From positions 1 through 60,858 of the forward strand of contig DAPV01000022.1 in assembly GCA_002502625.1 (NCBI GenBank): a stretch of DNA of 60,858 nucleotides. Direction: 5' to 3'. Numbering within the stretch: position 1 is the stretch's first letter; every line of letters begins with the position of its first letter. A model generated the notes under the pieces. It had not been told where the DNA came from. It made no database searches and saw nothing but the letters and a program-made list of their open reading frames with translations. The position numbers and the translations under genes were made by a program. Below, in pieces: positions 26,713 to 49,530 of this stretch. The DNA comes from Euryarchaeota archaeon UBA125. Its GTDB lineage: Archaea > Thermoplasmatota > Poseidoniia > Poseidoniales > Thalassarchaeaceae.

Positions 26713-26750
26713 CCCGATTTCATCATCAACCTGTTTGTTCTGGTAACAAC

Positions 26751-28091
26751 ATGTTCAACCGGGTGTTGATTGCGAACAGAGGTGAAATCGCCCTCCGAAT
26801 AGGTCGTGCGTTGCGTTCTTTGGGGGTAGAAGTTTGCATGATTCATGGTCGAGAAGATCGGCTTTCTACTCCAGTACGTTTTTCTGATGATTCTCGACCA
26901 ATTTTACGTTCAAATCCCCTTGATTCATATTTGGATATTGAGGCAGTAATAGATGCTGCTAAGTCAATGGGCGTTGATGCAATACATCCCGGATATGGTT
27001 TTTTAGCAGAAAATGCAGATTTTGTTCGTAGATTAGAAGAAGAAGAAATCACGTTCATTGGCCCCTCTTCTGATGTTATTCGATTACTAGGAGATAAAAT
27101 TGAAGCCCGAAAGGCGATGGAAGCAGCTGGACTTCCTGTAGCTAAAGGAAGCAGTGAATCGGTTTCATCTGCTGATGAAGCAGTATCTCTTGCCTCAGAG
27201 ATAGGTTATCCTGTGATTATCAAAGCAGCAGCAGGAGGGGGCGGAATTGGAATGCAAATTGTCCATGATTCATCTGAATTTTCATCTGCTTTGAATTTGT
27301 GCCAATCTAGAGCAAGAAGTGCATTTGGTGATGACCGAGTTTTTGTTGAGAAGTATATTGAAGGAGCACAACATATTGAATTTCAAGTTCTTGCAGATGG
27401 TAAGAATGCTATTCATTTTGGAGAAAGATTCTGCAGTATTCAGAGAAGGCATCAGAAATTGTTGGAAGAAGGGCCTTGGCTTTCAGATGAAGTCCGTTCA
27501 GAAATTGGATCAAAAGTATGCGCTGGGGCTGAAGCAGTCGGGTATCGTGGCTTAGCTACTTTTGAATTTCTTAGAGATTCAAATGGTGATTTCTATTTCT
27601 TAGAAGTAAACCCTAGAGTGCAAGTAGAGCATACAGTCACAGAGATGATTACGGGAGAAGATATGGTCCAACTTGGGATTCGTGTCGCTGCGGGAGAGTC
27701 TCTTCCTTTGACTCAAGAGGATGTGAAATTTAATGGTCATGCGATTCAATTTAGAATAAATGCCGAAGACCCTAGAAAATTTGTTCCCTCACCCGGAAAA
27801 CTGTGGGAATGTCATTTTCCAGGAGGTGTAGGAGTTCGGGTAGATACACATGCTCATGTTGGCTATGATATGCCTGGATGTTTTGATTCATTACTCGCTA
27901 AGATGATTGTATGGGGGAAGGATAGAAATGAAGCCATTGCTCGAAGTAGAGCCGCATTAGCTGAGACAGTAATCATTGGAGTAGATACTGTAATTCCCTT
28001 ACATCGTGCAATACTAGATGAGAGAGATTTTTTGGATAGAAGGGTGACTATTCGTTATTTAGAAAATCACCCGAGTATACTTGAAGATTAA
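26751..28091 (+). CDS. accC: biotin carboxylase subunit of an acyl-CoA carboxylase
   Basis: MFNRVLIANRGEIALRI, ATP-grasp GYPVIIKAAAGGGGIGM, FLEVNPRVQVEH and AEDP. No BCCP or carboxyltransferase gene is adjacent. Confidence 0.92.
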   Translation: MFNRVLIANRGEIALRIGRALRSLGVEVCMIHGREDRLSTPVRFSDDSRPILRSNPLDSYLDIEAVIDAAKSMGVDAIHPGYGFLAENADFVRRLEEEEITFIGPSSDVIRLLGDKIEARKAMEAAGLPVAKGSSESVSSADEAVSLASEIGYPVIIKAAAGGGGIGMQIVHDSSEFSSALNLCQSRARSAFGDDRVFVEKYIEGAQHIEFQVLADGKNAIHFGERFCSIQRRHQKLLEEGPWLSDEVRSEIGSKVCAGAEAVGYRGLATFEFLRDSNGDFYFLEVNPRVQVEHTVTEMITGEDMVQLGIRVAAGESLPLTQEDVKFNGHAIQFRINAEDPRKFVPSPGKLWECHFPGGVGVRVDTHAHVGYDMPGCFDSLLAKMIVWGKDRNEAIARSRAALAETVIIGVDTVIPLHRAILDERDFLDRRVTIRYLENHPSILED

Positions 28092-30824: not shown

Positions 30825-31283
30825 TCAATCCGAACGCTTCATTGCATTTCTAGCATCATCGGCACGTTTCCATAATTTCTCTTCTTCTTCCGAAGATGGA
30901 GCGAATTGAGGGATTGGAATTGGTCTCATTTGCGAATCAATTGCGACCATAAAAAAGAATCCTTCACATATTTCTTCTCGTTCCCATTCACTTCGATTTA
31001 ACCTTCGTGCAATAACATGCACTCCAGCAGTATGTGTGCTTGTGTGGACGACTTTTGCCGTTGTTTCTATCAAATCACCTTGGAAAGCAGGTCTTTTGAA
31101 TTTTAAAGCGTCTATAGAGACTGTAACAAATTCTCTATGAGCAAATTTACTCGAGACCATTCCGGCAGCAGTATCCATAATGCTTAGTAGTCTTCCTCCA
31201 AATAATGTATTATACGAATTAGTATGTTGCGGAAAAACCTCATCCATTTTGGTGACTGGTTCGGTGGAATATGGCCCCTTCAT
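30825..31283 (-). CDS. hotdog-fold acyl-CoA thioesterase (YciA/ACOT-like)
   Basis: FPQHTNSYNTLFGGRLLSIMDTAAG is characteristic of the acyl-CoA hydrolase family. Confidence 0.8.
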   Translation of the reverse strand: MKGPYSTEPVTKMDEVFPQHTNSYNTLFGGRLLSIMDTAAGMVSSKFAHREFVTVSIDALKFKRPAFQGDLIETTAKVVHTSTHTAGVHVIARRLNRSEWEREEICEGFFFMVAIDSQMRPIPIPQFAPSSEEEEKLWKRADDARNAMKRSD

Positions 31284-38511: not shown

Positions 38512-39453
38512 ATGGAAGATATCATTCACCTTTGGGATGGAGAGAAATGGAATGGACCTATCACTGATGGCCATTTACATTTAGATAGAAAAGGCCGTTG
38601 TTTGGATGCAGCTATTGATTTCGAAAGTTCAGGAGGAACTAGACTAATTCTTGTTCATAAGCCGAATTTTTCGAAATTACCTGAAGATATAGATGATGTA
38701 TCTACTGCTTACTTGGAAACAATATCGATTGCAAATGAAGTAAGAACATCAACTAATATTCATGTTCAAGTGATTTTAGGACCTCATCCCGTAGTTTGGT
38801 CCCACCAAATTGAATCACTAGGAGAAAAAAGAGCAACTGAACTTCATATTGAATCTGTTGATTTGGCATTAAGATACTTTGAATCTGGAGATTGTGTAGG
38901 TATTGGAGAGATAGGTAGGCCTCATTTTCCAGTATCTTCTGAAGTTTGGGAATCTGCTAATAGAATGTTGGAAGAATTATTGACAAGATGTTCAAAGAAG
39001 AATGCTCCAGTTCAATTTCATGTTGAAGACAAAGGATCTTCTACATTCCAAGAATTGAGTCAAATTTGTTCTAAAGCAAATTATCCTAAGTCGATTGCTT
39101 TGAGACATTATGCTCCTGCGGATGTTTCCCCTTCTTTCACCTCAAAACTTCCTGTTACTGTGAGTATGGGTAGAGGTTCAGTACAGAAAATTGCTTCAAC
39201 AATAGATGTTAATTTATTGTTTAAAGGAGACCATCCTCCAGTACTTATGGAAACAGATTATCTTGATGATCCTAAACGTCCAGGAGCAGTTTTAGGTCCA
39301 CGAACTATTGCAAAGCGGACAAATGAACTTGGTAAATTACTTCAAATCCCTAAAGATGAGGGAGGTCAAGGTTGGAAACAAGAAGAAATATCTCAATTTC
39401 TATGGAAAATTCACCGTGTTTGGCCAGACATGCTGTACGGCGAATGTAGGTGA
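38512..39453 (+). CDS. TatD-related TIM-barrel metal-dependent hydrolase (COG1099-like)
   Basis: N-terminal DGHLHLD metal-ligand motif, later GEIGRPHF and HVED. Confidence 0.55.
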   Translation: MEDIIHLWDGEKWNGPITDGHLHLDRKGRCLDAAIDFESSGGTRLILVHKPNFSKLPEDIDDVSTAYLETISIANEVRTSTNIHVQVILGPHPVVWSHQIESLGEKRATELHIESVDLALRYFESGDCVGIGEIGRPHFPVSSEVWESANRMLEELLTRCSKKNAPVQFHVEDKGSSTFQELSQICSKANYPKSIALRHYAPADVSPSFTSKLPVTVSMGRGSVQKIASTIDVNLLFKGDHPPVLMETDYLDDPKRPGAVLGPRTIAKRTNELGKLLQIPKDEGGQGWKQEEISQFLWKIHRVWPDMLYGECR

Positions 39454-39531: not shown

Positions 39532-40323
39532 ATGTTGGAACTAGAAGGAAAGACCGCACTAATTTTTGGAGTTGCATCTGAAGACTCAATTGCATGGGCA
39601 ATTTGCCAACATTTGGCTAAAGCAGGATGTCGATTGATATTAGGTTATCAGCCAAGATATCGCAGTAGATTGTATCAACTCAAAGGGCAATTGGAATCGA
39701 TTGATGCCTTCTATCCTTGCGATGTAGCTACAGACGAACAAACAAAGGAATTTTTCGATGAATGGCAGAAAGAATCACCCGGTTCGAAAGCAGACATTAT
39801 TGTTCATGCAATCGGGTTTGCACCTAGAGAAACTTTCGATAGACACATGTTATTCAATGAGATGGAATCAATAGATTTGGCTATGAAGATTAGTGCACAT
39901 TCATTACAACGATTGATGAGACATTCTGTTCCTTACCTGAATGATGGATCATCTACAATTACTCTAACTTATGCTGCTAGCAGTCGTTATGTTCCTAATT
40001 ATGGAGTAATGAGTATAGCTAAAGCAGCATTAGAGTCATGGGTTAGAGAGTTAGCAGCACGTTTGGGGGAAAACGGACACCGTGTAAATGCAATTTCAGC
40101 AGGCCCAATCAAGACTCTTGCCGCAGGTGGAATTCCGGGATTTGATAGAATTCTAAATCATGTTGAACGAAATTCACCCTTACGAAGAAATACAACTCAA
40201 GATGATGTTGCAGGAGCAGCGGTTTGGCTTGCCAGCCCTCTAAGTGGAGCAGTTACAGGACAAATTTTGCACGTCGATTGTGGATATAGCATTACTATGG
40301 TCCCGGAGAGCATCAATGATTGA
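39532..40323 (+). CDS. fabI: enoyl-[acyl-carrier-protein] reductase (NADH), FabI type
   Basis: Collinear with bacterial FabI over its full length from memory: GKTALIFGVASEDSIAWAI, HAIGFAP, YGVMSIAKAALES (Tyr/Lys), RVNAISAGPIKTLAA and HVDCGYSI. Confidence 0.9.
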   Translation: MLELEGKTALIFGVASEDSIAWAICQHLAKAGCRLILGYQPRYRSRLYQLKGQLESIDAFYPCDVATDEQTKEFFDEWQKESPGSKADIIVHAIGFAPRETFDRHMLFNEMESIDLAMKISAHSLQRLMRHSVPYLNDGSSTITLTYAASSRYVPNYGVMSIAKAALESWVRELAARLGENGHRVNAISAGPIKTLAAGGIPGFDRILNHVERNSPLRRNTTQDDVAGAAVWLASPLSGAVTGQILHVDCGYSITMVPESIND

Positions 40324-40332
40324 GGTGAAGAA

Positions 40333-43300
40333 ATGCAACTGGATGAATCTCCTCAAGATCCTTTTGAACCAGTTGCAATTGTTGGGTTAGGTGCAATTCT
40401 TCCTGATTCGGATGATGCTGAAACGTTTTGGCAGAATGTGATTAATGCAAATGTGTCTATTGAAAATGTTCCCGAGGATAGATGGATTGTTTCAGATCAT
40501 TGGCAAGAAGGTGGCCCAAAGAATATTCCAGAAGGAAAGACGTATTCTAGAATTGGTGCATTCGTAAAAGATTTCGAATTTGATTGGAAACGTTGGCGTG
40601 TCCCTCCAGGAACATTATCTCAGATAGATCTTAGTCAACAGTGGGCAGTTGCAGTATCGGCTGCAGCTTTGGAAAATGCTGGATATCTTGGTGATGAGGC
40701 AGAAAGAGAAATTCCCAATTCAAGAACAGGAGTTGTATTTGCAAATGCTTTAGGGGGGGAGAATCGAAATTTATCCAATCATCGTGTTTGGGCGGATTCA
40801 TTTGCTAGAAAAGCCGTAGAAGCGGGAATGCCTGAAGATTCAGTTGATGTTTTCAAGGAATCAATAACAGAAGGATTACCTAGAGTAGATGAAGATACAA
40901 TGCCAGGGGAATTAGCAAATGTTGTAGCAGGAAGAGTTGCAAATTTACTTGATCTCCAAGGCCCAAATTATGCTACTGATGCAGCATGTGCTAGTACTTT
41001 TGCTGCTGTAATGGACGCTTGTCATCTACTTCAATCAAGACAGGTAGATCTGATGATTGCAGGCGCCTCTGATCGAACTATGGATCCCGCAACCTTTGCT
41101 AAATTCAGTGCAATAGGCGCACTTTCTCCCTCTCATTCAACTCCCTTTGATGCAAGTGCAAATGGATTTGTTATGGGGGAAGGAGCCACTGCATTTGTTC
41201 TCAAACGGTTGGATGATGCATTAGGTGATGATGATACAATTTATGCTGTAATTCGAGGTATAGGGGCAAGTAGTGATGGCCGTGGAAAAGGGATTACTGC
41301 ACCTAGTACTAGGGGGCAAATACAAGCATTATGCCGTGCTTATCAACAAGCGGGATATGGCCCAAATTCTGTGGAATTAATCGAAGCACATGGGACTAGT
41401 ACAGTCGTAGGAGATGCTACTGAACTTACTTCATTAGCAGAAATTTTTGGAGAAAAAACTCAAGTTGGTAGTGTTGCAGTTGGTTCAATTAAGAGTCAAA
41501 TTGGTCATTTAAAAGCAGCAGCAGGTGGAGCAGGTCTTCTCAAAGCAGTTTTTGCTTTGCATCATCGAACAATCCCTCCGTCTGCTGGTTTCTCTGAACC
41601 TAATCAGAGTCTTGATTGGCAAAAAATACCATTTTTTGTTCCTGTAGAACCTCTTGACTGGCCAAAACCGAAATCTCATCCAAGAAGAGCATCAGTTAGC
41701 GCCTTCGGTTTTGGCGGTACTAACTTCCATTGTGCTTTGGAACAATTTGATTCTGATTTCCATTCATCTTTAGTCTCTGAATGGAAATTACGTAGAGATG
41801 CATATTTGATGCGACCGAAAGCAGGATTTTCTGATAATGTACTAAACAGTGTATTGAAGAAATATGGTATTGAGGATAAAGAAGCATTTCTTAATCATGC
41901 GGCAAATTTCGATTCAGACGATAACGAATATTTGAATCGCAAGGAATTAACAGCAGCCGCAGATGCCTATTCGAAAAATGATTCAGGAATGGATTGGGGC
42001 GAACTTAAGAGTATAGAAGGGGGTTTACTTTTACTAAATGCAAAAGATAGTTCTTCTTTGATTGAATCTATTGCTTCTCTGAGTTCTGAATTTTTCGATG
42101 GCTCGTCGAATTTTGATTCAGATCCAAATGGAAAACGTCTTTCTTCCATACTTCCAAATATTTCTAAGAATTTTGAGGCAAAAGGAATACGTCTCGGAAT
42201 TGTAGCAAATTCATGGGAGATTTTGGAGAAAAGAATGAAGATGGCTTCCAGTTCTTTAGAGGATCCTTCAAAATGGGAATTTCTTGCTAAGCAATTCATT
42301 TTCATTTCTGATTCCCCTCCAAATCAAGACCAGTTGCTTGCACACATGTATCCTGGTCAAGGCAGTCAATATGTTGGAATGACGTATGATCTTTCCAAGA
42401 GATTCAGAATAATTAGTGAAACCTGGAAGGAAGCAGATATTGTGATGAATAAGATCATCGGGGAACCACTTTCTGAATTCGTTCTTCGTTCAAATTTGAC
42501 AGAAAATGAAAATGCAGAGGCAGAAGAGAAATTGAAGCAAACAGAATACACTCAACCTGCTATGTTAACAGCAGATCTTGCTATTGAACGATTATTGAAT
42601 CAACATGGGATTCACCCTGATATGGTTGCAGGACATAGTCTTGGAGAATATGCTGCGTTGATGGTATCGGGGATCTTACGCTTTGAGGATGCTCTCAAAG
42701 CTGCTGCTGCTAGAGGAACTGAGATGGGAAGCGTTGATGTCCCAGATAAGGGAATTATGGCTTCAATAACAGCACCGTATGATGTTATCGAATCGGTATT
42801 AGATTCTGTTGATGGATATGTGATTGCAGCGAATAAGAATTCTCCGAACATGACAGTGATAGCGGGGGAAACTGAACCGATGCGTGAAGCAATGAAGAAA
42901 TTCGAAGAAGGGGGAGCAACTGTAATTCAACTCCAGACAAGTCATGCATTTCATAGTCGAATAGTTGCTCCTGCGAACGAACCCCTCCGCCGATTCTTAG
43001 AAGGGTTAGAAATCTCTCTACCTTCAATTCCAGTAACTGCTAATGTGGACGGTTCATTCTATCCCGATTCAGTTAGTGAGGATGAAGAAGTTAAGGATGT
43101 AATACTCGAAAAGTTGGCTCCTCAGATGTCATCTGCCGTTGAATGGACATCTCAAGTAGAGTCTATGAGAGATGCTGGAGCAAAAATATACTTGGAAGTA
43201 GGCCCTAAACGCGCCCTCGCTCTATTTACAGGACAGATACTGGATGAACATGAATGCATAGTGAATATTACAAATCATCCTAAAGCCGGAGGCATTACTT

Positions 43301-46300
43301 CCTTCTTTGGAGCATTAGGAATGCTTGCAGTGGCAGGAAGATGTCCCGAAATTCATTCACTTTCTTCTGAAATTCATACTGCTGAATTTAGTGCTGGGCC
43401 AATCGAAACATCTCTACAAAATAATGTAGTAAGACATTCTTTAGAGGAAGAATCTCTACGAATCCGAGCACGTCCTCTTCCAAATGGTTCTGTTTCTACA
43501 TCAATTAAAAATTCAGAGTCGAATGTTAGTGTTTCTTCTTCTAATGTAATGGAAACAGAGTTTCAAGCAAGTCGTCGAATTTCTACATCGATTGCTGAAA
43601 TTTTTTCAGAACACGTTGGGTTCCCTTCCTCTGTTTTAATTGGAGCAGTTTCACTTAGTGAAATTGGTTTAAGTTCCGAAGCACGTTCTTCAATTGTAAA
43701 TGAAATTCAATCAAAATTTCAAGTTAGAACCTCTGATCATTCCTCTTTTACTACAATACAGGACTTTACTGATTGGATTGAAGTAATTCCTCAGATGAAA
43801 AGTTCAACTCTAGATTCTACTGTTTTAGAAAAAATATCTTCTGATCCCCCTGTAGTTTCAGGTGTTTCATTGGGCCTTCCAGGTCTTTCTGAAGTCTTTG
43901 ATTCTGAAGGATGGGATGCAATATTGAGTGGTAAAAATCTCATTTCTGAATTACCTGATGATATGAAAGAGAAATTACTCTCTAAACGAATAGTTCGGTT
44001 GGTAAAGGAAGAGGATGGAACTGCAAATCTTGTTCCTGCTGATTCAGTTGAAACAATTCCACAACTTGCTGGAAGAGGGGGTCATTTCGATCTTTCAGAA
44101 CAATATGGAATAGATCCACATTTAGTCGATGCTTTTGATATTGCAACCTCTCTTTCTTTTGCAGCTGGTTTAGAGGCACTTTCCGATGCGGGATTGCCTT
44201 TGATTCCAGTTGAACAGAAAAACAGTGCGGGCAAGAGAATGATTCGTCGTTGGTCTCTTCCAGATGAAGAAAAAGATCGAACTGGAGTTATTTTTGCATC
44301 AGTATTTCCCGGATTACAGAAAGCGATAGATCATGCTTTGAATAATGGACAAGTAAACAATGGTCATTTTGATCGTAAATATTTACTTCAAGTTCTTTCG
44401 ATGGGGCATAGTCAATTTGCGAATTGGATAGGTGCAAGAGGACCGAATTTAGCAATTAACAATGCTTGCGCATCTACTCCTGCAGCATTTGCCATAGCGG
44501 AAGATTGGATGGCAACGAATCGTTGTGACCGGGTGATTATTGTCAGTGGAGACGATTCTACAGGTGATACTCTGATGCCTTGGATTGGAGCTGGATTTGC
44601 AGCAGCAGGAGCACATGCAATGGGTAATGATGTGGAAAAAGTTGCATTGCCTTTCGATGCTCGACGTCATGGTATGCTATTGGGTATGGGTGGAGCAGCA
44701 TTTGTTTTAGAACGAAATAAAGATTCTAGAGAAAGAGGTGTAACTCCGTATGTAGAAGTATTGGGTGCTGAAATTGCGAATAGCGCCTTCCATCCTACAC
44801 GATTGGATACGGAACACGCAGCACAAGTCATGAACCGTTTTGTTTCAAGAATGGAAAATAAATGGAACTTGAAACGTGACTCTTTGGTAGATGATATGAC
44901 ATTTATGTCGCACGAACCTTATACTCCTCCAAGAGGAGGTTCAGCTTCAGCAGAAGTTTCTTCACTTCGAGCTGTTTTTGGTGATGGTGCTTCTAGAATT
45001 CTCATTACCAATGGGAAAGGATACACTGGCCATCCTATGGGAGTAGGTTTAGAGGATGCAATTGTAATCCGAGGACTTGCTGCAGGTCGCCTTCCTCCTA
45101 TTGCAAACTTTTCAGAGCCAGATCCTTCATTAGGAGAACTCAATCTTTGTACTGGCGGAGAACATAATCTAACCTATGCGCTTCGACATGGTGCGGGTTT
45201 TGGTAGTCAGATTGCTCTGACATTCCTTCGAAGGATTGCTTTATCAGATACTGCAAGATTTACTCCCGGAAAAATCGAATCTTGGGTCAAACGTCATACT
45301 GGTTCATCATCAATTCATCTCCGATTACTTGATAGAAAATTAGTGGCATATCTTGATCCTGATGAAGACCTAATTGGAGGCGTCGAAGGAGATGAAATAC
45401 ATCTTGAATCTAATATTGAATATGAAGAAAAGCCTGTTAAGATAACTGAAACATTTGTAACTCAAATTGATGATACTTCAGTTTCAGAAGTTCAGCCTGA
45501 AAAGTCTGATTCTGAACCAATTTCTACCTCTGAAAACATAGTTGATTCAGATATTGAAGCAAGTGTTTTGGATGTAGTGGCAGAAGCAACAGGTTACCCA
45601 TCTGAATTCCTAGAATTAGATGCTGATATGGAAGGTGAATTGGGCATCGATTCGATTAAACAAGCGGAAATTATGGCAGAACTCAGAGGGAGATATGGTC
45701 TTCCAGTTGATGATTCATTCCAATTAAGGGAGTATCCAACATTAGGTCATGTAATCGGATATATTTCGTCATTTGGTGATGCATCTACTCATGTTGTCCA
45801 ATCAAAATTGGCTGAACTAGAGTCTGAACCACCACCTCTTGATAATCCAGTAGTTGAGTCAACAAACGATGAAGAGAAGATTTCTCAAATTTCTGAATCA
45901 GTAGTTGAGGGCGTAGTTTCGGTAGTCGTCGAACATACAGGATATCCTGCTGAATTCCTTGAAATGGATGCAGATATGGAAGGTGAATTAGGTATCGATT
46001 CAATCAAACAGGCCGAAATAATGGCAGATCTTAGAGAACAATTTGGTATTCCAGTAGACGAAGAATTCCAATTAAGAGATTATCCAACATTAGGGCATGT
46101 GATTTCGTATATAGCCTCCTTTTCTCAATCGGATGAACAGTTAGAAACAGTTGTTGAACCAATATCGATAGAACACGAATTGGAGCCAGAGCCTTCCATA
46201 GTGTCCTCAATTTCGCAACGTGGAATTGAAACTAAACAATTTGACATTCAATCTAAACGATATCAGATTGAAGTTGAGCAATGTGAATGGTCCACATCCG

Positions 46301-48873
46301 AACCTCTAGATATTCAAGGCAGAAGTATCATTGTTACTGACGATGCCTGGGGAATTGCAGGTACGTTATGTGATGCTTTAGAAAATAAGGGCATAGAAGC
46401 TGTACGTGTATTCTTAGATCCTAGTGTGACGAATGGCCCTATCAGAGAAAGAGATGGTGAAGTAGACGTTATTCGAGTTGCACCTGCTGATGAAGAACAG
46501 ATATCTGAATTAGGAGAAATTGTTCGTTCTATCGCCCCACCTGCCGGAATTATTCATCTCGCACCTGTCCGATTAGCAGGTGTTCCTTGGGAAGATCCTA
46601 CAACAAGATCTCATCTCGATTATTCAGTAACTGCATTATTCGGAATCCTCAAATGTTTGGATAGTGATTTGAAGGATGCAGATTCTGGATTAATAGCCTC
46701 AGTTTCTGCATTGGATGGAAGGCACGGTGTTGAAGGAGCTCGATTTAATTCGATTTCAGCAGGAGCACATGGAGGAGTGAAAAGTTATGGCCGAGAACGC
46801 CCTAATTTGAGAAGCAGAGCTATCGATTTAGATCCTAGCCTATTAACTGAACCAGAAACATTAGCAGAAATGTTGCTAACAGAAATTTTCGAGCAAGAAA
46901 CACCTAGAGAGTTGGCTGTGGATAAAGATGGGTCGCGATATCGTTTGAGTCTATTTGAAGAAGAATTAGAAGATTCAATATTATCGCTCTCTTCTGATGA
47001 TGTATGGGTTGTATCTGGTGGGGGCGCAGGAGTAACCGCAGCATGTATTATTGAGACTGCAAGGGTGTCAGAAGATGCTGGAGCCAGATTTATTCTTCTA
47101 GGACGTTCGAAATTAAATGCAGATCAAGCATCGTTGGTGAATTCTTCAGATGAAGTTCTTGAACAAGAAAAGAATGCTCTACGTGAAAGGATGATTGAAG
47201 AAAAAGGTGAGAAAGTTTCTCTCAAGGAATGGAATCATCAGTGGAGTAAATGGCTTCGTGGTTTAGAGATTCATAAAACTCTTGAGTCAATCCGTTTAAC
47301 TGGAAACGAAGCGATATATCTTAGCGTAGATGTTACAGATTCAGAAACAACAAGAGAAATACTTCGAGGAGTTAGTGAAAATCTAGGTCCTGTTACTGGA
47401 ATAGTACATGGAGCCGGAATTGAAGATTCAACACCGTTTGAAAGAAAAGAATCCTCTACTATGGAACGAGTCCTTTCTGTAAAGGTAGATGGATGGAGAA
47501 ATATTGTTACCGCATTAGAATCTGATCTACCGAATATGAGATTCCTTTGTTCATTTACAAGTATTGCAGGACGACAGGGTAATGCAATGCAGTTTGGTTA
47601 CTGTGCCGCTAATCAGATTTTGGATGTTGAGATGGCCAGGATTGCAGCACACGAGGAAGCCCCTCGTGCAGTTGCGATTGCTTGGGCGCCTTGGGGTGAC
47701 ATCGGAATGGCAACACGAGGGTCTCTTGAGACAATCTTTGAGCGTGCAGGAATCGATATGATCCCATCTGATCAGGGGGCTTCGAGATTTGTTGATGAGG
47801 CTCTTAGAGGAGGGAATAGAATGGTAATGATTTCTGGTTCTTTAGGAGAACTAGATGACGAAGAATCAACGCGTCTTCCTTCACAACCATTACCTGAAGA
47901 AATTTCTGAGCTTATTTCTGAACCGTTGTCCTTCCCATTTGTTAATCGTGTAGAATCAATAGAGCCATTTTCTAACGTAATGATTTCTTCTGTTTTAGAT
48001 GTTAATTCTCATCCATATTTGATTGATCATGCAATTGATGGTGTTGCATATATGCCTGGCGTTATGGCAATGGAGGCATTTGCTGAAGCAGCACGAACTA
48101 TGTGGCCAATGTGTGTAGTAGATGGTTTTGAGGATGTGGAATTTGGTCTTCCAGTAAAGGTCACTAAAGACTCGAAATCGATTAGGATTACAGCATCATT
48201 TGAAAGACAAGATGACAATCATATCTGGATACAATGTAGTTTAGAGACAGATTTGATGAATTCTAAAGGAGAGGTGTTTGGAGATCCTAAATCTCATCAC
48301 AAGGGTGCAGTTAGGATGTTGAAGACAGGTGGTCTAGCTGAAAGAGTTGAAGCCATTGATTTGGGAGAAGTCAATTCTGGTTCAGCAATTCATGGCCCTA
48401 AATTTGTTTATGATAGAATGTTCCATGGTCCAAGATTCCAAGTTCATGGTGGAATAATTGGAGGGATTTATGTTAATGGCGACAGAGGTTTAGATTCACA
48501 TGCACTTTCACGTGATGAATTACCTAAGACTGATTTGTTTGCAGAAGAAGTAGGCGGTAAACAGATGAGGCTAGAATCACTTCCTATGTTGGTTGAGGCC
48601 TGTTTCCAGAATGCTGGACTAGTATCAATGGAAATAGACGGATTAGAATCATTACCAGTTGGAATTCAACATGTAGATATTGATGTTGAATCATTCAAGA
48701 CTCCATTACGAATTAGATCCGTCCGTCGTTCAATTTCTGAAGATGGCGTAACAACTCATGATGCGATTATTGTGAATGAAAATGATGCTGTTGTGATTCA
48801 ACTCAAAGGTCTTCAATTGAAAGGAATGGCGCCATTAACTGATAATCAGCGATTTACGTTTACTGATATTTGA
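40333..48873 (+). CDS. type I FAS/PKS-like megasynthase, PUFA-synthase (PfaA)-related: KS-AT-ACP-like-KS-ACP-ACP-KR-DH
   Basis: See the domain features below. Catalytic residues were located by me from coordinates. Single uninterrupted 2846-codon ORF with a GAGGTGA SD site 4 nt before the ATG. Confidence 0.95.
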   Translation: MQLDESPQDPFEPVAIVGLGAILPDSDDAETFWQNVINANVSIENVPEDRWIVSDHWQEGGPKNIPEGKTYSRIGAFVKDFEFDWKRWRVPPGTLSQIDLSQQWAVAVSAAALENAGYLGDEAEREIPNSRTGVVFANALGGENRNLSNHRVWADSFARKAVEAGMPEDSVDVFKESITEGLPRVDEDTMPGELANVVAGRVANLLDLQGPNYATDAACASTFAAVMDACHLLQSRQVDLMIAGASDRTMDPATFAKFSAIGALSPSHSTPFDASANGFVMGEGATAFVLKRLDDALGDDDTIYAVIRGIGASSDGRGKGITAPSTRGQIQALCRAYQQAGYGPNSVELIEAHGTSTVVGDATELTSLAEIFGEKTQVGSVAVGSIKSQIGHLKAAAGGAGLLKAVFALHHRTIPPSAGFSEPNQSLDWQKIPFFVPVEPLDWPKPKSHPRRASVSAFGFGGTNFHCALEQFDSDFHSSLVSEWKLRRDAYLMRPKAGFSDNVLNSVLKKYGIEDKEAFLNHAANFDSDDNEYLNRKELTAAADAYSKNDSGMDWGELKSIEGGLLLLNAKDSSSLIESIASLSSEFFDGSSNFDSDPNGKRLSSILPNISKNFEAKGIRLGIVANSWEILEKRMKMASSSLEDPSKWEFLAKQFIFISDSPPNQDQLLAHMYPGQGSQYVGMTYDLSKRFRIISETWKEADIVMNKIIGEPLSEFVLRSNLTENENAEAEEKLKQTEYTQPAMLTADLAIERLLNQHGIHPDMVAGHSLGEYAALMVSGILRFEDALKAAAARGTEMGSVDVPDKGIMASITAPYDVIESVLDSVDGYVIAANKNSPNMTVIAGETEPMREAMKKFEEGGATVIQLQTSHAFHSRIVAPANEPLRRFLEGLEISLPSIPVTANVDGSFYPDSVSEDEEVKDVILEKLAPQMSSAVEWTSQVESMRDAGAKIYLEVGPKRALALFTGQILDEHECIVNITNHPKAGGITSFFGALGMLAVAGRCPEIHSLSSEIHTAEFSAGPIETSLQNNVVRHSLEEESLRIRARPLPNGSVSTSIKNSESNVSVSSSNVMETEFQASRRISTSIAEIFSEHVGFPSSVLIGAVSLSEIGLSSEARSSIVNEIQSKFQVRTSDHSSFTTIQDFTDWIEVIPQMKSSTLDSTVLEKISSDPPVVSGVSLGLPGLSEVFDSEGWDAILSGKNLISELPDDMKEKLLSKRIVRLVKEEDGTANLVPADSVETIPQLAGRGGHFDLSEQYGIDPHLVDAFDIATSLSFAAGLEALSDAGLPLIPVEQKNSAGKRMIRRWSLPDEEKDRTGVIFASVFPGLQKAIDHALNNGQVNNGHFDRKYLLQVLSMGHSQFANWIGARGPNLAINNACASTPAAFAIAEDWMATNRCDRVIIVSGDDSTGDTLMPWIGAGFAAAGAHAMGNDVEKVALPFDARRHGMLLGMGGAAFVLERNKDSRERGVTPYVEVLGAEIANSAFHPTRLDTEHAAQVMNRFVSRMENKWNLKRDSLVDDMTFMSHEPYTPPRGGSASAEVSSLRAVFGDGASRILITNGKGYTGHPMGVGLEDAIVIRGLAAGRLPPIANFSEPDPSLGELNLCTGGEHNLTYALRHGAGFGSQIALTFLRRIALSDTARFTPGKIESWVKRHTGSSSIHLRLLDRKLVAYLDPDEDLIGGVEGDEIHLESNIEYEEKPVKITETFVTQIDDTSVSEVQPEKSDSEPISTSENIVDSDIEASVLDVVAEATGYPSEFLELDADMEGELGIDSIKQAEIMAELRGRYGLPVDDSFQLREYPTLGHVIGYISSFGDASTHVVQSKLAELESEPPPLDNPVVESTNDEEKISQISESVVEGVVSVVVEHTGYPAEFLEMDADMEGELGIDSIKQAEIMADLREQFGIPVDEEFQLRDYPTLGHVISYIASFSQSDEQLETVVEPISIEHELEPEPSIVSSISQRGIETKQFDIQSKRYQIEVEQCEWSTSEPLDIQGRSIIVTDDAWGIAGTLCDALENKGIEAVRVFLDPSVTNGPIRERDGEVDVIRVAPADEEQISELGEIVRSIAPPAGIIHLAPVRLAGVPWEDPTTRSHLDYSVTALFGILKCLDSDLKDADSGLIASVSALDGRHGVEGARFNSISAGAHGGVKSYGRERPNLRSRAIDLDPSLLTEPETLAEMLLTEIFEQETPRELAVDKDGSRYRLSLFEEELEDSILSLSSDDVWVVSGGGAGVTAACIIETARVSEDAGARFILLGRSKLNADQASLVNSSDEVLEQEKNALRERMIEEKGEKVSLKEWNHQWSKWLRGLEIHKTLESIRLTGNEAIYLSVDVTDSETTREILRGVSENLGPVTGIVHGAGIEDSTPFERKESSTMERVLSVKVDGWRNIVTALESDLPNMRFLCSFTSIAGRQGNAMQFGYCAANQILDVEMARIAAHEEAPRAVAIAWAPWGDIGMATRGSLETIFERAGIDMIPSDQGASRFVDEALRGGNRMVMISGSLGELDDEESTRLPSQPLPEEISELISEPLSFPFVNRVESIEPFSNVMISSVLDVNSHPYLIDHAIDGVAYMPGVMAMEAFAEAARTMWPMCVVDGFEDVEFGLPVKVTKDSKSIRITASFERQDDNHIWIQCSLETDLMNSKGEVFGDPKSHHKGAVRMLKTGGLAERVEAIDLGEVNSGSAIHGPKFVYDRMFHGPRFQVHGGIIGGIYVNGDRGLDSHALSRDELPKTDLFAEEVGGKQMRLESLPMLVEACFQNAGLVSMEIDGLESLPVGIQHVDIDVESFKTPLRIRSVRRSISEDGVTTHDAIIVNENDAVVIQLKGLQLKGMAPLTDNQRFTFTDI
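40366..41748 (+). other. KS domain 1 (approximate bounds)
   Basis: DAACAST with Cys219 (40987-40989), EAHGTST His353, SQIGHLKAAAG His392 and GFGGTNFH. Confidence 0.85.
42340..43230 (+). other. acyltransferase (malonyl-CoA:ACP type) domain (approximate bounds)
   Basis: YPGQGSQYVGM, GHSLGEYAAL with Ser769 (42637-42639), and TSHAFHSRIV. Confidence 0.85.
43579..43785 (+). other. ACP-like segment with non-canonical GLSS in place of G(L/I)DS
   Basis: IAEIFSEHVGFPSSVLIGAVSLSEIGLSSEARSSIVNEIQSKF. The candidate attachment residue is Ser1115 (43675-43677). The Asp preceding the Ser is replaced by Ser. Confidence 0.45.
43846..45240 (+). other. KS domain 2 (approximate bounds)
   Basis: INNACASTPAA with Cys1379 (44467-44469), SHEPYTPP His1527, GYTGHPMGVG His1567 and GAGFGSQ. 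Confidence 0.75.
45550..46125 (+). repeat. in-frame tandem duplication encoding two ACP domains (period 348 nt)
   Basis: Both copies contain DADMEGELGIDSIKQAEIMA(E/D)LR...FQLR(E/D)YPTLGHVI. Attachment residues are Ser1774 (45652-45654) and Ser1890 (46000-46002). The nucleotide copies are clearly alignable with many synonymous differences. Confidence 0.9.
46996..47840 (+). other. ketoreductase catalytic subdomain (approximate; a Rossmann-like structural subdomain lies upstream from about 46300)
   Basis: VVSGGGAGVTAACI, IVHGAGI, SFTSIAGRQGN and GYCAAN with Tyr2423 (47599-47601). Confidence 0.8.
47930..48870 (+). other. PKS-type dehydratase (double hotdog) domain
   Basis: HPYLIDHAIDGVAYMPGV is the HxxxGxxxxP motif with His2566 (48028-48030). 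Downstream FHGPRFQ is similar to the DH motif. Confidence 0.75.
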
Positions 48874-48882
48874 GGGATCATT

Positions 48883-49530
48883 ATGGCAGTAAATGCTTGG
48901 ACTCCTTTGCATGATCCCATTTTTCTAGATATTGAAGCAGGGATGTTTTGTTCATTGTTAGAGATTCCAAGAATTCCCAGAGAAGTTTCATTCGAAGAAA
49001 TTTCGTTCACTAGCTCAAATTTTGAATCTATGACTCCTAGTAGAAGAGAACAACACGCTGCTGGACGATATTGTTTGAATTCTCTTATCAACAAGGCTGA
49101 AATTCAGTATGGAATAATTTCTGAAAATTTTCCTTTGACGATTCAAACAAAAACGGGAATTAAACCTCTGAGTATTTCACATTGTGATTCCATCGCAGTT
49201 GCAGTATTAGGGGTAAATAGTGAGTCGATTGGAGTTGATATTGAATCTAAAGATAGAAGTATTTCAACTGCAATTCTTGATCAATTCTGCTCGCCTAAAG
49301 AAATTAAACATTTAATGAATGCAAGTCATACTGAGAGACTAGAAATATGGATGGTAAAAGAGGCTGTTTCCAAGGCAACAGGTGATGGGATGTCAATTGC
49401 TAAAGAAGTAGCAATTGTAGGTGATAATGCGTATTATCAGTCTTCAGTTTTTAGTATAATTAGACATGAGTATAAAGGGTATAACATAGTAGTCGCTATC
49501 GATTATTCTGATTCATCAATGGATAGTTGA
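48883..49530 (+). CDS. 4'-phosphopantetheinyl transferase, Sfp type
   Basis: GVDIESKDR (metal-binding Asp/Glu) and WMVKEAVSKATG (WxxKEAxxK). Starts 9 nt after the megasynthase stop. Confidence 0.8.
   Translation: MAVNAWTPLHDPIFLDIEAGMFCSLLEIPRIPREVSFEEISFTSSNFESMTPSRREQHAAGRYCLNSLINKAEIQYGIISENFPLTIQTKTGIKPLSISHCDSIAVAVLGVNSESIGVDIESKDRSISTAILDQFCSPKEIKHLMNASHTERLEIWMVKEAVSKATGDGMSIAKEVAIVGDNAYYQSSVFSIIRHEYKGYNIVVAIDYSDSSMDS

What the first reader, a model, noticed from the sequence alone, without database searches (positions are those of the whole stretch)
39532..49530. Self-contained ACP-dependent acyl-chain synthase operon (FabI, 2846-aa megasynthase, Sfp-type PPTase) embedded in an archaeal chromosome
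Seen: three co-directional genes are separated by 9-nt gaps with SD-like sites (stop 40323 then ATG 40333; stop 48873 then ATG 48883). The central ORF carries intact KS, AT, carrier, KR and DH signatures (residues listed in the features). FabI is collinear with bacterial enoyl-ACP reductase I. The last gene has the GVDIE and WxxKEAxxK motifs of Sfp-type PPTases. Established knowledge: KS+AT+ACP+KR+DH+ER+PPTase is everything needed for iterative, fully reducing chain synthesis. Archaea make isoprenoid ether lipids and, as a rule, lack ACP, holo-ACP synthase and type I FAS/PKS. The LGIDSIK carrier signature is typical of PUFA-synthase (PfaA-type) 'secondary lipid' systems of bacteria. Inference: this archaeon makes an ACP-bound fatty-acyl or polyketide-type lipid. 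The cluster is not a canonical pfa locus: it has no PfaC-type FabA-DH pair, no PfaD FMN enoyl reductase (FabI instead) and no thioesterase or release domain in cis. Archaeal markers lie on the same contiguous sequence on both sides (Orc1/Cdc6 at 23 kb; PCNA/TFS/Nop5/fibrillarin at 55-58 kb). I cannot determine from here whether this exact architecture has been described.
Basis: partly seen in the sequence, partly recalled or inferred. Interest (0 to 1): 0.85.

Follow-up and report, generated by a model that had tools for sequence, protein, structure and literature searches.

The report
Two-ketosynthase fatty-acid megasynthase in marine archaea
This stretch of a Marine Group II archaeal chromosome carries a conserved, bacterial-type three-gene unit (FabI reductase, a giant two-ketosynthase carrier-protein-dependent synthase, and its activating enzyme) that most likely makes fatty-acyl chains, giving a concrete candidate enzyme for the suspected 'mixed' membranes of these abundant ocean archaea.

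Summary
FabI (39532-40323), a 2846-aa type I synthase (40333-48873) and an Sfp-type PPTase (48883-49530) are separated by 9-nt SD-like gaps, and archaeal core genes lie on both sides. It is not a misassembly. The identical protein occurs on at least 22 independently assembled contigs (up to 395 kb) with the same synteny, and composition matches the flanks. The host is a Marine Group II archaeon (Poseidoniales, probably Thalassarchaeaceae). The cassette is conserved across MGIIa and MGIIb at 50-92% identity.

The true order is KS1-MAT-psiACP-KS2-ACP-ACP-KR-DH.

This layout matches the uncharacterised bacterial 'Type R secondary lipid synthase' (KS-MAT-'CLF'-ACPn-KR plus PPTase; Shulse and Allen 2011). 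That family is very large (at least 592 genome loci). Most bacterial members have an acyl-CoA-dehydrogenase-like gene where MGII has FabI.

Most likely function: iterative, ACP-dependent, fully reducing fatty-acyl synthesis. The product and release step are unknown.

MGII were already said to carry 'bacterial lipid genes', but no paper I could read describes this enzyme.

Side finding: most family members, though not this window, have Thr instead of Ser at the phosphopantetheine site.

The parts
39532..40323 (+). fabI-like enoyl-ACP reductase (263 aa), the trans-acting ER partner
   Evidence: Pfam adh_short_C2 2.8e-71 over the full length. Best NCBIfam hits are all FabI equivalogs (236 bits, below their cut-offs). 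Best PDB hit is Thermus FabI 1ULU, 4e-57, residues 2-255, with the catalytic Y...PNY...K pattern conserved. It lies immediately upstream of the synthase in all MGII loci examined.
40324..40332 (+). 9-nt junction GGTGAAGAA with SD-like GGTGA (TGA stop, then ATG)
   Evidence: Sequence read directly.
40333..48873 (+). 2846-aa iterative type I synthase, KS1-MAT-psiACP-KS2-ACP-ACP-(psiKR)KR-DH
   Evidence: Pfam. NCBIfam best is TIGR02813 PfaA at 848.6 bits, below the 1010.1 cut-off. More than 120 full-length orthologue clusters in MGII.
40366..41751 (+). KS1 (residues 12-473), PfaA/PKS-type ketosynthase, C219/H353/H392
   Evidence: Pfam ketoacyl-synt N+C. On its own it scores 358 bits to TIGR02813 PfaA. 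PDB 7ZMA 385 bits and 6RIW 232 bits. The triad is invariant in 14 divergent orthologues.
42337..43224 (+). Malonyl-type acyltransferase (residues 669-964), GHS769LG and H871AFH
   Evidence: Pfam Acyl_transf_1 3.4e-34. NCBIfam fabD 1.9e-58. Motifs are invariant. Reading HAFH as malonyl-specific is established PKS knowledge.
43564..43812 (+). psiACP ('X', residues ~1078-1160): degenerate carrier-like domain
   Evidence: hhalign against ACP1/ACP2 gives probability 95%, E 4e-8, over 69 columns. The residue at the attachment position varies (S/P/A/D/G) among orthologues. The closest bacterial relatives have a real carrier here.
43843..45252 (+). KS2 (residues 1171-1640): second, FabF-like ketosynthase with intact C1379/H1527/H1567
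   Evidence: Pfam ketoacyl-synt 2.2e-14. PDB FabF 4DDO 2e-20, with the alignment placing Cys and both His. The profile hits FabF 2GQD at 1e-36. It is 54-86% identical among MGII, as conserved as KS1 and AT. Hallmark motifs N-A-C-A-S-T and FMSHE(T/P)YTPxRGGSAxAE are invariant.
45544..45777 (+). ACP1 (residues 1738-1815), attachment Ser1774 (codon 45652-45654)
   Evidence: Pfam PP-binding. Motif ELGIDSIKQAEIM.
45895..46128 (+). ACP2 (residues 1855-1932), attachment Ser1890 (codon 46000-46002)
   Evidence: Pfam PP-binding, second stretch. NCBIfam ACP models match residues 1854-1930. 71% identical to ACP1.
46210..47742 (+). KR with its N-terminal structural half (residues ~1960-2470); G2229GGAG, S2410/Y2423/N2427
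   Evidence: Pfam KR 1.4e-24. The pre-KR part matches PfaA model positions 1755-2089. Motifs are invariant.
47920..48870 (+). PKS-type double-hotdog dehydratase (residues ~2530-2846); H2566xxxGxxxxP, E2755xxxQ
   Evidence: Pfam PKS_DH_N 2.7e-08 plus a weak PS-DH hit. Motifs are invariant in 14 orthologues.
48874..48882 (+). 9-nt junction GGGATCATT (TGA stop, then ATG), SD-like
   Evidence: Sequence read directly.
48883..49530 (+). Sfp-type 4'-phosphopantetheinyl transferase (215 aa)
   Evidence: Pfam ACPS 1.7e-12 (47.8 bits, cut-off 25) plus 4PPT_N. Motifs GVDIE, WMVKEAVSK and LSISH. A PPTase follows the synthase in every MGII locus.
30825..31283 (-). 4HBT hotdog thioesterase: candidate trans-acting release enzyme (inferred, not shown)
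   Evidence: Pfam 4HBT 1.1e-14 and YciA-like. It holds the same position in L001, L088-L092. Only close relatives could be checked.
26709..28091 (+). Biotin carboxylase (accC-like): possible malonyl-CoA supply (inferred)
   Evidence: NCBIfam ACC biotin carboxylase 3.5e-171. Relatives of the synthase are physically linked to ACC genes in L005 and L048 and in Koribacter.

Best explanation
The segment is a three-gene, probably co-translated cassette: fabI, megasynthase, PPTase. It is a vertically inherited core feature of Marine Group II archaea and is of bacterial origin. It encodes an iterative, carrier-protein-dependent, fully reducing acyl-chain synthase of the PfaA-like 'Type R secondary lipid synthase' kind.

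Proposed mechanism:
1. The Sfp-type PPTase transfers 4'-phosphopantetheine from CoA to Ser1774 and Ser1890 of the two tandem carriers (inferred from domains and motifs).
2. The HAFH-type acyltransferase loads malonyl units from malonyl-CoA (inferred).
3. Two catalytically intact ketosynthases perform decarboxylative condensations: KS1 (PfaA/PKS-like) and KS2 (divergent FabF-like). They probably divide the work between priming or early cycles and later elongation. This would be a remnant of an ancestral two-module KS1-AT-ACP / KS2-ACPn-KR-DH layout whose first carrier has decayed in MGII (layout shown; division of labour inferred).
4. The cis KR and PKS-type DH produce a trans-2-enoyl thioester, which FabI reduces in trans. 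Straight, saturated or mostly saturated fatty-acyl-ACP results, because no FabA-type isomerase is present.
5. The chain leaves through a trans-acting hotdog thioesterase, or by direct acyl transfer to glycerol phosphate (not shown; no release function is in the cassette).

Favoured physiological role, with roughly 45% sub-confidence: supply of fatty acids for ester-linked or chimeric membrane lipids in an archaeal order that lacks G1P dehydrogenase.
For: - Domain content and intact catalytic residues in every domain, invariant across ~50% sequence divergence.
- FabI is full length with catalytic residues.
- PPTase motifs are present.
- 9-nt junctions.
- The cassette and its neighbours are conserved in MGIIb and MGIIa loci on contigs of 330 kb, 589 kb and 3.0 Mb. 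The exact protein is on at least 22 contigs.
- The MGII KS2 clade is monophyletic and splits into MGIIa and MGIIb.
- Composition equals the flanks.
- The same core architecture occurs in at least 592 bacterial and archaeal genome loci.
- An ACAD-like gene occupies the FabI position in 42 of 68 loci. This suggests the upstream partner supplies the enoyl-reduction step.
- Relatives are repeatedly linked physically to acetyl-CoA carboxylase, BioY and biotin ligase, as expected for a malonyl-CoA-fed fatty-acid synthase.
- The architecture equals published Type R, KS-MAT-CLF-ACP(3-6)-KR plus PPTase.
- Literature: MGII lack G1P dehydrogenase and have G3P dehydrogenase. [quoted passage not shown]
Against: - There are no product, expression or biochemical data of any kind.
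- No release or acyl-transfer enzyme is in the cassette, and none was found in the window apart from a distant 4HBT thioesterase.
- NCBIfam trusted cut-offs are not reached for PfaA (848.6 vs 1010.1) or for any FabI equivalog (236 vs at least 299), so these are divergent members.
- The role of KS2 is unknown. Published work called the equivalent domain a chain-length factor.
- Bacterial relatives use an ACAD-like partner whose direction (reductase or desaturase) is unknown, so 'fully reducing' is secure only to the extent that FabI acts on this synthase.
- Type R products are uncharacterised and were proposed to be 'secondary' lipids, not bulk membrane lipids.
Confidence: 0.72

Rival explanations
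1. The enzymology is the same, but the product is a specialised 'secondary' lipid and not the bulk membrane fatty acid. Examples would be a very-long-chain or hydroxy acyl chain for a cell-envelope glycolipid, a storage lipid, a hydrocarbon precursor or a protein lipid anchor. The product might be exported or placed in the envelope.
For: - The family corresponds to Shulse and Allen's Type R 'secondary lipid synthase', for which a modified fatty-acyl end product was proposed.
- Characterised relatives in the wider pfa-like superfamily make heterocyst glycolipid or phenolic-lipid alkyl chains.
- An MsbA-like ABC transporter and GT2 glycosyltransferases lie downstream in the window and in L001.
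- The conserved block begins with a ~1900-aa surface protein.
- Many bacterial hosts of the family presumably also have FAS II (not tested).
Against: - The ABC transporter and GT2 neighbours are not conserved in L002 and are rearranged in L003.
- Order-wide vertical conservation with strong purifying selection, in a streamlined genome, fits a core function.
- Repeated linkage to ACC and biotin genes in relatives resembles primary fatty-acid synthesis.
- No tailoring enzymes are in the cassette.
Confidence: 0.3
2. The synthase mainly supplies short acyl-ACP precursors for cofactors (octanoyl-ACP for lipoate, pimeloyl-ACP for biotin), as mitochondrial FAS II does, and does not supply lipids.
For: - Aerobic heterotrophs need lipoylated 2-oxoacid dehydrogenases.
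- Relatives are linked to BioY, biotin ligase and ACC.
- This rests on inference from established knowledge of mitochondrial FAS II.
Against: - Tandem carriers (1-4 in MGII, up to 6 in bacteria) are a flux-raising feature of high-output PUFA-type synthases.
- A 2846-aa enzyme with two KS domains is excessive for C8.
- BioY and biotin ligase are explained more simply by the biotin dependence of ACC.
- No LipB/LipA or BioF genes are nearby in the window.
Confidence: 0.06
3. The 39.5-49.5 kb segment is a bacterial fragment joined to archaeal DNA by misassembly or binning error, or a recent island that is not really part of the lineage.
For: - The genes are bacterial in type.
- A tRNA-Gly gene lies 230 nt after the PPTase, and tRNAs are common island integration sites.
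Against: - GC is flat at 0.39-0.42.
- The tetranucleotide correlation of the cluster with the rest of the window is 0.962-0.964, against a window-wide 0.968 +/- 0.005. GC3 is 0.23-0.27, the same as Orc1, PCNA and fibrillarin.
- The identical protein is on at least 22 contigs from different projects (ENA, NCBI, TARA, Logan), up to 395 kb, with the same archaeal genes on both sides.
- Orthologous cassettes have the same neighbours in MGIIa and MGIIb on contigs up to 3.0 Mb.
Confidence: 0.01
4. The cassette is a decaying relic of an old transfer and no longer functions.
For: - The first carrier (X) has degenerated.
- Most orthologues have Thr in place of the canonical carrier Ser.
Against: - The 8.5-kb reading frame is uninterrupted in more than 120 clusters.
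- Every catalytic motif is invariant.
- KS, AT and KS2 are 54-86% identical across the order, while linkers drop to 25-57%.
- The PPTase and FabI are retained everywhere.
- The window itself has the canonical Ser in both carriers.
Confidence: 0.02

Closest known systems
'Type R' pfa-like secondary lipid synthase cluster (Shulse and Allen 2011, PLoS One 6:e20146; Koribacter, Solibacter, Elusimicrobium, Roseiflexus)
   Same: - One giant pfaA homologue with the order KS-MAT-second KS-like domain ('CLF')-tandem ACPs-KR, followed by a PPTase gene.
- The PPTase has the hShxH (P1b') motif of Types M-T (window: LSISH).
- Occasional linkage to ACC genes.
- The host phyla of my bacterial relatives (Acidobacteriota, Chloroflexota) coincide with the published ones.
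- The product is unknown in both.
   Different: - The host is archaeal; that survey contained no archaea.
- FabI lies upstream, where most bacterial relatives have a ~560-aa acyl-CoA-dehydrogenase-like gene.
- There are only 2 carriers (published range 3-6), and they are Ser-type.
- The second KS keeps Cys-His-His, so 'CLF' is a misnomer.
- A C-terminal PKS-type DH is present, which the published formula does not list.
- I could not compare directly with the named exemplar sequences.
PfaA subunit of bacterial PUFA synthases (pfaABCDE; NCBIfam TIGR02813)
   Same: - Best-scoring curated family for the whole protein, for KS1 and for the pre-KR region.
- KS-MAT-tandem ACP-KR-DH backbone.
- LGIDSIK-type carriers.
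- Dedicated Sfp-type PPTase.
- Iterative logic.
   Different: - The score is below the family cut-off.
- ~640 aa (psiACP plus KS2) are inserted between the MAT and the carriers.
- There is no PfaB, no PfaC (KS-CLF-FabA-DH x2) and no PfaD FMN enoyl reductase. FabI serves instead.
- The PPTase lacks the PUFA-type (F/S)NxSH motif.
- With no FabA-like isomerase, cis-polyunsaturation is not expected.
Bacterial type II FAS enoyl-ACP reductase FabI (e.g. Thermus 1ULU, E. coli 1QSG)
   Same: Collinear over 254 residues, E 4e-57, with the catalytic Tyr/Tyr/Lys and the Rossmann motif.
   Different: It is encoded as the partner of a type I megasynthase in an archaeon. It scores below all NCBIfam FabI equivalog cut-offs. 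No other discrete Fab genes are in the window.
ACP-independent archaeal fatty acid synthase complex of Sulfolobus acidocaldarius (bioRxiv 10.1101/2024.07.05.601840)
   Same: Both are proposed routes to de novo fatty acids in Archaea.
   Different: That system is CoA-based: a thiolase-type ketothiolase with a DUF35 scaffold, an SDR reductase, a MaoC dehydratase and an MDR reductase, without ACP or PPTase. The MGII system is carrier-protein-dependent, malonyl-driven and type I.

Membership tests
Type R secondary lipid synthase (Shulse and Allen 2011) | Single pfaA homologue with the order KS-MAT-second KS-like ('CLF')-ACPn-KR | tested here: met
   KS1 12-473, MAT 669-964, KS2 1171-1640, ACP x2, KR. 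Definition quoted.
Type R secondary lipid synthase (Shulse and Allen 2011) | PPTase gene immediately downstream | tested here: met
   48883-49530, 9 nt after the synthase stop.
Type R secondary lipid synthase (Shulse and Allen 2011) | PPTase carries the P1b' motif hShxH (Types M-T), not the PUFA-type (F/S)NxSH | tested here: met
   The window PPTase reads PLSISHCDS. Criterion.
Type R secondary lipid synthase (Shulse and Allen 2011) | 3-6 tandem ACPs | tested here: not met
   The window has 2. MGII orthologues have 1-4.
Type R secondary lipid synthase (Shulse and Allen 2011) | Proximal KS groups phylogenetically with the named Type R exemplars (Koribacter, Solibacter, Elusimicrobium, Roseiflexus) | tested here: inconclusive
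A search from a Kouleothrix KS2 returned Chloroflexota, Acidobacteriota and Actinomycetota hits but none of the named strains in the top 120. The genome scan returned the same phyla.
Canonical PUFA synthase (pfaABCDE, Types A/B) | PfaA scoring above the TIGR02813 trusted cut-off | tested here: not met
   848.6 bits against a cut-off of 1010.1.
Canonical PUFA synthase (pfaABCDE, Types A/B) | PfaC with KS-CLF and two FabA-type DH/isomerase domains | tested here: not met
   No such gene or domain was found in the cassette or in any ORF of at least 100 aa that was scanned in the 60.9-kb window. The KS2 profile does not retrieve the PfaC structure 6RIW among its top 60 PDB hits.
Canonical PUFA synthase (pfaABCDE, Types A/B) | PfaD FMN-dependent enoyl reductase | tested here: not met
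   It is absent. An SDR-type FabI is present instead.
Chain-length factor (CLF) domains | Loss of the active-site cysteine | tested here: not met
   KS2 keeps C1379, H1527 and H1567. These are invariant in 14 MGII and 7 diverse family members.
FabI enoyl-ACP reductase | Full-length SDR with the Tyr-x(n)-Tyr-x6-Lys catalytic pattern and similarity to solved FabI structures | tested here: met
   1ULU at 4e-57 over residues 2-255. LTYAASSRYVPNYGVMSIAK aligns to LTYYASEKVVPKYNVMAIAK.
FabI enoyl-ACP reductase | NCBIfam equivalog trusted cut-off | tested here: not met
   Best is 236.2 bits. The cut-offs range from 299 to 477.
Sfp-type (group II) PPTase | 4PPT_N plus ACPS pseudo-dimer halves, with the GxD(I/L)E and WxxKE(A/S)xxK motifs | tested here: met
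   ACPS at 47.8 bits (cut-off 25). 4PPT_N at 24.2 bits (below its cut-off of 27). GVDIE and WMVKEAVSK are present. There is no PDB sequence hit.
Carrier-protein function of the tandem ACPs | Actual 4'-phosphopantetheinylation of Ser1774 and Ser1890 | not testable with these tools
   This needs intact-protein or peptide mass spectrometry after co-expression with the PPTase.

The most novel reading that the evidence does not exclude
Marine Group II archaea are among the most abundant archaea of the surface ocean. In this reading they make their own fatty acids with a bacterial-derived two-ketosynthase type I synthase and build ester-linked or chimeric membranes, so the 'lipid divide' is crossed by a whole archaeal order using an identifiable enzyme.

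In addition, the wider enzyme family (at least 592 genome loci) would carry its acyl chains on phosphopantetheine attached to threonine and not serine. I found no report of that carrier-protein chemistry.
Probability: 0.3. Interest if true: 0.88.

Novelty: new variant of a known kind. Interest (0 to 1): 0.6.

Why it matters
MGII/Poseidoniales are uncultured and hugely abundant. They lack the archaeal G1P dehydrogenase, and their membrane lipids are unknown. Reviews say only that they 'possess bacterial and archaeal lipid genes'. A 2024 study of archaeal fatty-acid synthesis still states that archaea encode neither FAS I nor a complete FAS II, and that nearly all lack ACP and ACP synthase.

Naming the actual machinery turns a long-running question into a cloning experiment. 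That machinery is one compact, order-wide conserved cassette of three genes (10 kb). The experiment is to express it, see what it makes, and then look for that lipid in the ocean.

The work also does three other things:
- It ties the archaeal enzyme to a very large, uncharacterised bacterial family.
- It suggests that the bacterial ACAD-like partner fills the enoyl-reductase slot.
- It exposes an unexplained Ser-to-Thr replacement at the carrier attachment site across most of that family.

Tried and rejected
1. Chimeric assembly or a compositional island was rejected.
2. Involvement of the conserved upstream 1909-aa gene was rejected. It has a signal/TM segment, a Ser/Thr/Gly/Asn-rich ectodomain, a C-terminal TM and no Pfam or NCBIfam hit, so it looks like a surface or S-layer-type protein. 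Its synteny probably reflects general gene-order conservation.
3. KS2 as a chain-length factor was rejected, because the catalytic triad is intact. My first assignment of His1 to 'AFHPT' was wrong. I corrected it to H1527 in 'FMSHEPYTP' from the FabF alignment.
4. I looked for covariation between the PPTase sequence and the Ser or Thr carrier type. Nothing was visible with only two Ser-type loci, so this is inconclusive.
5. The sigma-70 promoter and intrinsic-terminator scan is uninformative for an archaeon (12 sites found, 30 expected).
6. The PPTase has no hit against PDB sequences.
7. The homologue search with P0143 timed out.
8. Villanueva 2017, Herlemann 2009 and Martin-Cuadrado 2015 are not held. 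I therefore could not verify what exactly was reported for MGII fatty-acid genes, or for the Elusimicrobium pfaA homologue.
9. Ten literature searches found no description of the MGII megasynthase. The search for natural Thr-type carriers returned only irrelevant hits.
10. The tRNA-Gly as an integration scar: it lies downstream in 4 of 5 MGII loci but at variable distance (0.2-4.9 kb). I treat it as a conserved neighbour, not as evidence of recent insertion.

Full report
**1. Observation**

The gaps read TGA-GGTGAAGAA-ATG and TGA-GGGATCATT-ATG. Both are 9 nt with SD-like purine tracts.

Pfam recovers KS (N and C halves), AT, two PP-binding stretches, KR and PKS_DH_N in the large ORF. It finds a full-length FabI-type SDR upstream and ACPS plus 4PPT_N downstream.

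The flanks are archaeal. Upstream lie Orc1/Cdc6, a TBP-like gene, archaellum FlaI/FlaJ-type genes, a Bud32/RIO-type kinase and a fused PPAT/DPCK. Downstream lie PCNA, TFS, Nop5 and fibrillarin.

**2. Not an artefact**

- GC is flat across the window, at 0.36-0.42.
- The 10-kb windows covering the cluster correlate with the rest of the window at r = 0.962-0.964 in tetranucleotide usage. The window-wide value is 0.968 +/- 0.005.
- GC3 of the three genes (0.23-0.27) equals that of Orc1, PCNA and fibrillarin.
- The identical 2846-aa protein is recorded on at least 22 contigs from independent projects (ENA, NCBI, TARA Oceans, Logan), up to 395 kb. The gene order is the same from the 4HBT thioesterase through fibrillarin. 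A 92%-identical orthologue shows the same order.

**3. Whose genome**

All named homologues are Marine Group II archaea: Candidatus Thalassarchaeaceae, Thalassarchaeum, Poseidonia, Poseidoniales, 'Marine Group II euryarchaeote'. More than 120 clusters are 50-92% identical over the full length. The nearest named ones (70-79%) are Thalassarchaeaceae, so the window is probably MGIIb.

The block [~1900-aa surface protein]-[~260 aa]-[TBP-like]-[TatD]-[FabI]-[synthase]-[PPTase] recurs in MGIIb and MGIIa-type loci on contigs of 589 kb, 330 kb, 151 kb and 3.0 Mb. In a neighbour-joining tree of the KS2 domain, all these sequences form one clade that splits into an MGIIa-type and an MGIIb-type branch (no support values, distant outgroup). 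I read this as acquisition before the order diversified, followed by vertical descent.

**4. Anatomy, corrected**

- *KS2.* Residues ~1171-1640 are a second ketosynthase. Pfam ketoacyl-synt scores 2.2e-14. FabF structures are the best PDB matches, at 2e-20 for the sequence and 1e-36 for a family profile. The alignment to FabF places Cys1379 (NNACAS), His1527 (FMSHEPYTP, replacing the usual AHGTGT) and His1567 (TGHPMG). All three are invariant in 14 MGII orthologues and in 7 diverse family members. KS2 is 54-86% identical across MGII. That is as conserved as KS1 and AT, and far more so than the linkers. It is therefore an active-looking KS and not a Cys-less chain-length factor.
- *psiACP.* Residues ~1078-1160 ('X') align to the true carriers in a profile-profile comparison (95% probability, E 4e-8). 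The residue at the attachment position varies among orthologues, so X is a degenerate carrier. The closest non-MGII relatives have a genuine carrier there: KS1-AT-ACP-KS2-ACPn-KR-DH. This indicates an ancestral two-module layout.
- *Other domains.* KS1 and the pre-KR region score best against PfaA (TIGR02813), but the whole protein stays below that family's cut-off at 848.6 vs 1010.1 bits. KR (GGGAG; S2410/Y2423/N2427) and DH (H2566xxxGxxxxP; E2755xxxQ) motifs are invariant. The AT has GHSLG and HAFH. By established PKS knowledge HAFH marks malonyl specificity.
- *FabI.* It aligns end to end with Thermus FabI (1ULU, 4e-57) with the catalytic residues in place.

The domain order is KS1-MAT-psiACP-KS2-ACP-ACP-(psiKR)KR-DH.

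**5. The wider family**

An exhaustive search with residues 1001-1960 found 1061 representative clusters at E <= 1e-30. Nearly all of the best 150 share the same two-KS core.

The hosts include Myxococcota, Acidobacteriota, Chloroflexota, Actinomycetota (including cultured Nostocoides australiense), Woeseiaceae and others. A separate ~70%-GC clade is labelled Thermoplasmatota.

Gene neighbourhoods:
- Of 68 loci with an intact 5' flank, 42 have a ~560-aa acyl-CoA-dehydrogenase-like gene directly upstream.
- Four have FabI, and all four are MGII.
- Twenty-two have neither. These are mostly a Myxococcota/'Proteobacteria' subgroup whose synthase ends in a fused PPTase.

FabI therefore occupies the slot that the ACAD-like gene holds in bacteria. 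I interpret this as non-orthologous displacement of the enoyl-reduction partner (inference).

Several relatives are embedded among acetyl-CoA carboxylase and biotin genes. L048 has carboxyltransferase-synthase-BioY-biotin carboxylase-BCCP. L005 has PPTase and biotin ligase upstream and a 1925-aa fused ACC downstream.

**6. Comparison with what is known**

Shulse and Allen (2011) defined twenty types of pfa-like 'secondary lipid synthase' clusters. [quoted passage not shown] It occurs in Koribacter, Solibacter, Elusimicrobium and Roseiflexus, has an ACC gene intervening in Koribacter, and its product is unknown.

This is the architecture found here, with my KS2 corresponding to their 'CLF'. The window's PPTase also has the hShxH motif (LSISH) that they report for Types M-T, as opposed to the PUFA-type (F/S)NxSH. 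The word 'archaea' does not occur in that paper.

I could not align against the named exemplars. A search seeded from a Kouleothrix KS2 returned the right phyla but not those strains. Membership therefore rests on architecture, PPTase motif and host range. The phylogenetic criterion is untested.

The cassette is not a canonical PUFA synthase. It has no PfaB, PfaC or PfaD, no FabA-type domains, and scores below the PfaA cut-off.

**7. Prior knowledge about MGII**

- Rinke et al. 2019 report that no MGII MAG has G1P dehydrogenase and that most have G3P dehydrogenase. They discuss only fatty-acid degradation.
- Tully 2019 likewise discusses only degradation.
- The 2015 MGII review does not mention fatty acids.
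- Besseling et al. 2020 cite Villanueva et al. [quoted passage not shown] They found no IPL-GDGTs in MGII-dominated water.
- A 2024 preprint on Sulfolobus states that archaea encode neither FAS I nor a complete FAS II, and that nearly all lack ACP and ACP synthase.

I could not read Villanueva 2017. I therefore cannot exclude that parts of this cassette were listed there as Fab homologues. No paper I could read describes the megasynthase, its two-KS architecture or its relation to Type R.

**8. Mechanism**

*Shown by sequence:* every catalytic centre needed for iterative condensation, ketoreduction, dehydration and enoyl reduction, plus two carriers and a dedicated PPTase, in three tightly spaced genes.

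*Inferred:*
- Malonyl-CoA is the extender.
- FabI acts in trans on the enoyl-carrier intermediate.
- The product is a straight, saturated or mostly saturated acyl chain, because no isomerising dehydratase is present.
- The two KS domains split priming or early cycles from later elongation.

*Unknown:* chain length, release and destination. Candidates for release are the conserved 4HBT thioesterase at 30825-31283, or acyltransferases encoded elsewhere in the genome.

The membrane-lipid destination is attractive given the missing G1P dehydrogenase and the reported PlsC. A specialised 'secondary' lipid remains a serious rival.

**9. Unexpected side finding**

In the motif ELGID[S/T][IV]KQAEIM, the attachment residue is distributed as follows among the 120 MGII homologues:
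- Ser in only 24. This is the window's clade plus a few others, always with two carriers.
- Thr in 96, with one to four carriers.
- No MGII protein mixes the two.

Thr also dominates the bacterial relatives. Three Myxococcota-type proteins combine a Ser carrier after the AT with Thr carriers after KS2. Thr-type synthases keep all catalytic motifs and an adjacent or fused PPTase. In the KS2 tree, Ser- and Thr-type MGIIb sequences are interleaved. This suggests that both residues work.

To my knowledge canonical carriers use Ser (own knowledge). One literature search found no natural Thr-type carrier. I did not resolve this point, and it does not affect the window, which is Ser-type.

**10. Verdict**

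The finding is real and the functional reading is sound. The kind of enzyme is catalogued (Type R) but uncharacterised, and MGII are already said to have bacterial lipid genes.

New here:
- the explicit identification of the MGII enzyme and its corrected two-KS architecture;
- the FabI-for-ACAD swap;
- the order-wide conservation of the cassette;
- the size of the bacterial family;
- the Thr-carrier puzzle.

Interest is 0.6. Novelty is rated as a new variant of a known kind.

Noticed in passing
Related proteins P0021-P0120; representatives P0121-P0270; loci L002-L087. The window itself (45652-45654, 46000-46002) is Ser-type.: The phosphopantetheine attachment residue of the carrier domains is Thr in 96 of 120 MGII homologues and in most bacterial relatives. 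Ser appears in only 24 MGII homologues, and no MGII protein mixes the two. Thr-type enzymes keep every catalytic motif and an adjacent or fused PPTase. L026, L027 and L030 combine one Ser carrier with Thr carriers.
   Followed up: partly
L007 8307-9968; also L032, L034, L037, L039, L050, L057-L064, L067-L087: A ~560-aa acyl-CoA-dehydrogenase-like gene sits directly upstream of the two-KS synthase in 42 of 68 loci with an intact 5' flank (the other 26 being the 4 MGII FabI loci and 22 with neither). This is exactly where MGII has FabI. It may be the family's enoyl reductase, or a desaturase.
   Followed up: partly
L048 5022-19104; related L031, L035, L040, L051: A second, separate clade labelled 'Thermoplasmatota' (~70% GC) has the synthase inside an acetyl-CoA carboxylase operon: carboxyltransferase-synthase-BioY-biotin carboxylase-BCCP. 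Whether these contigs are truly archaeal was not checked.
   Followed up: partly
L006, L008, L009, L011, L013, L015-L017, L020: In a Myxococcota/'Proteobacteria' MAG subgroup, the closest bacterial relatives of the MGII KS2, the PPTase is fused to the C-terminus of the 3100-3800-aa synthase. A real carrier sits between the AT and KS2, and no ER-type gene is adjacent.
   Followed up: no
window 31453-37182 (+): A 1909-aa ORF has no Pfam or NCBIfam hit. It has an N-terminal signal/TM segment, a Ser/Thr/Gly/Asn-rich ectodomain, a C-terminal TM and an acidic/Pro-rich tail. It is probably a surface or S-layer-type protein. It is syntenic upstream of the cassette in all MGII loci.
   Followed up: partly
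window 37190-39453 (+): Three tightly packed genes are conserved between the surface protein and fabI in MGII. They are a 262-aa protein with no family hit, a 174-aa single-repeat TBP-like protein (PF00352 at 23.5 bits, just above cut-off), and a TatD-family hydrolase. The first two genes overlap and the third follows after 9 nt.
   Followed up: no
window 49760-49834 (-); L001 21165-21237; L003 21791-21861; L004 25463-25533: tRNA-Gly(TCC) lies 0.2-4.9 kb downstream of the PPTase in 4 of 5 MGII loci, on varying strands. It may be an old integration landmark or simply a conserved neighbour.
   Followed up: partly
window 25438-28091 (+): A CysJ-like FAD/NADPH flavoprotein (424 aa, lacking the flavodoxin half) overlaps by 4 nt the start of an ACC-type biotin carboxylase. 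This is an unusual apparent translational coupling.
   Followed up: no
window 20535-21563 (+): A fused cytidylyltransferase-like (PPAT) plus DUF359 protein is present. By own knowledge, DUF359 is the archaeal GTP-dependent dephospho-CoA kinase. If so, the last two steps of CoA synthesis are encoded 19 kb from a cassette that consumes CoA for carrier priming.
   Followed up: no
window 28096-29706 (-): A 536-aa ORF has no family hit, two adjacent hydrophobic segments and a long, low-complexity Ser/Glu/Asp-rich tail. Its function is unknown.
   Followed up: no
L005 8118-27903: A bacterial locus from an anaerobe-like context (rubrerythrin, rubredoxin) encodes a 4041-aa version with an extra N-terminal KS, three KS in all. 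It is flanked by a PPTase, a biotin ligase and BioY, and followed by a 1925-aa single-chain acetyl-CoA carboxylase. This looks like a complete, self-contained fatty-acid synthesis island.
   Followed up: no
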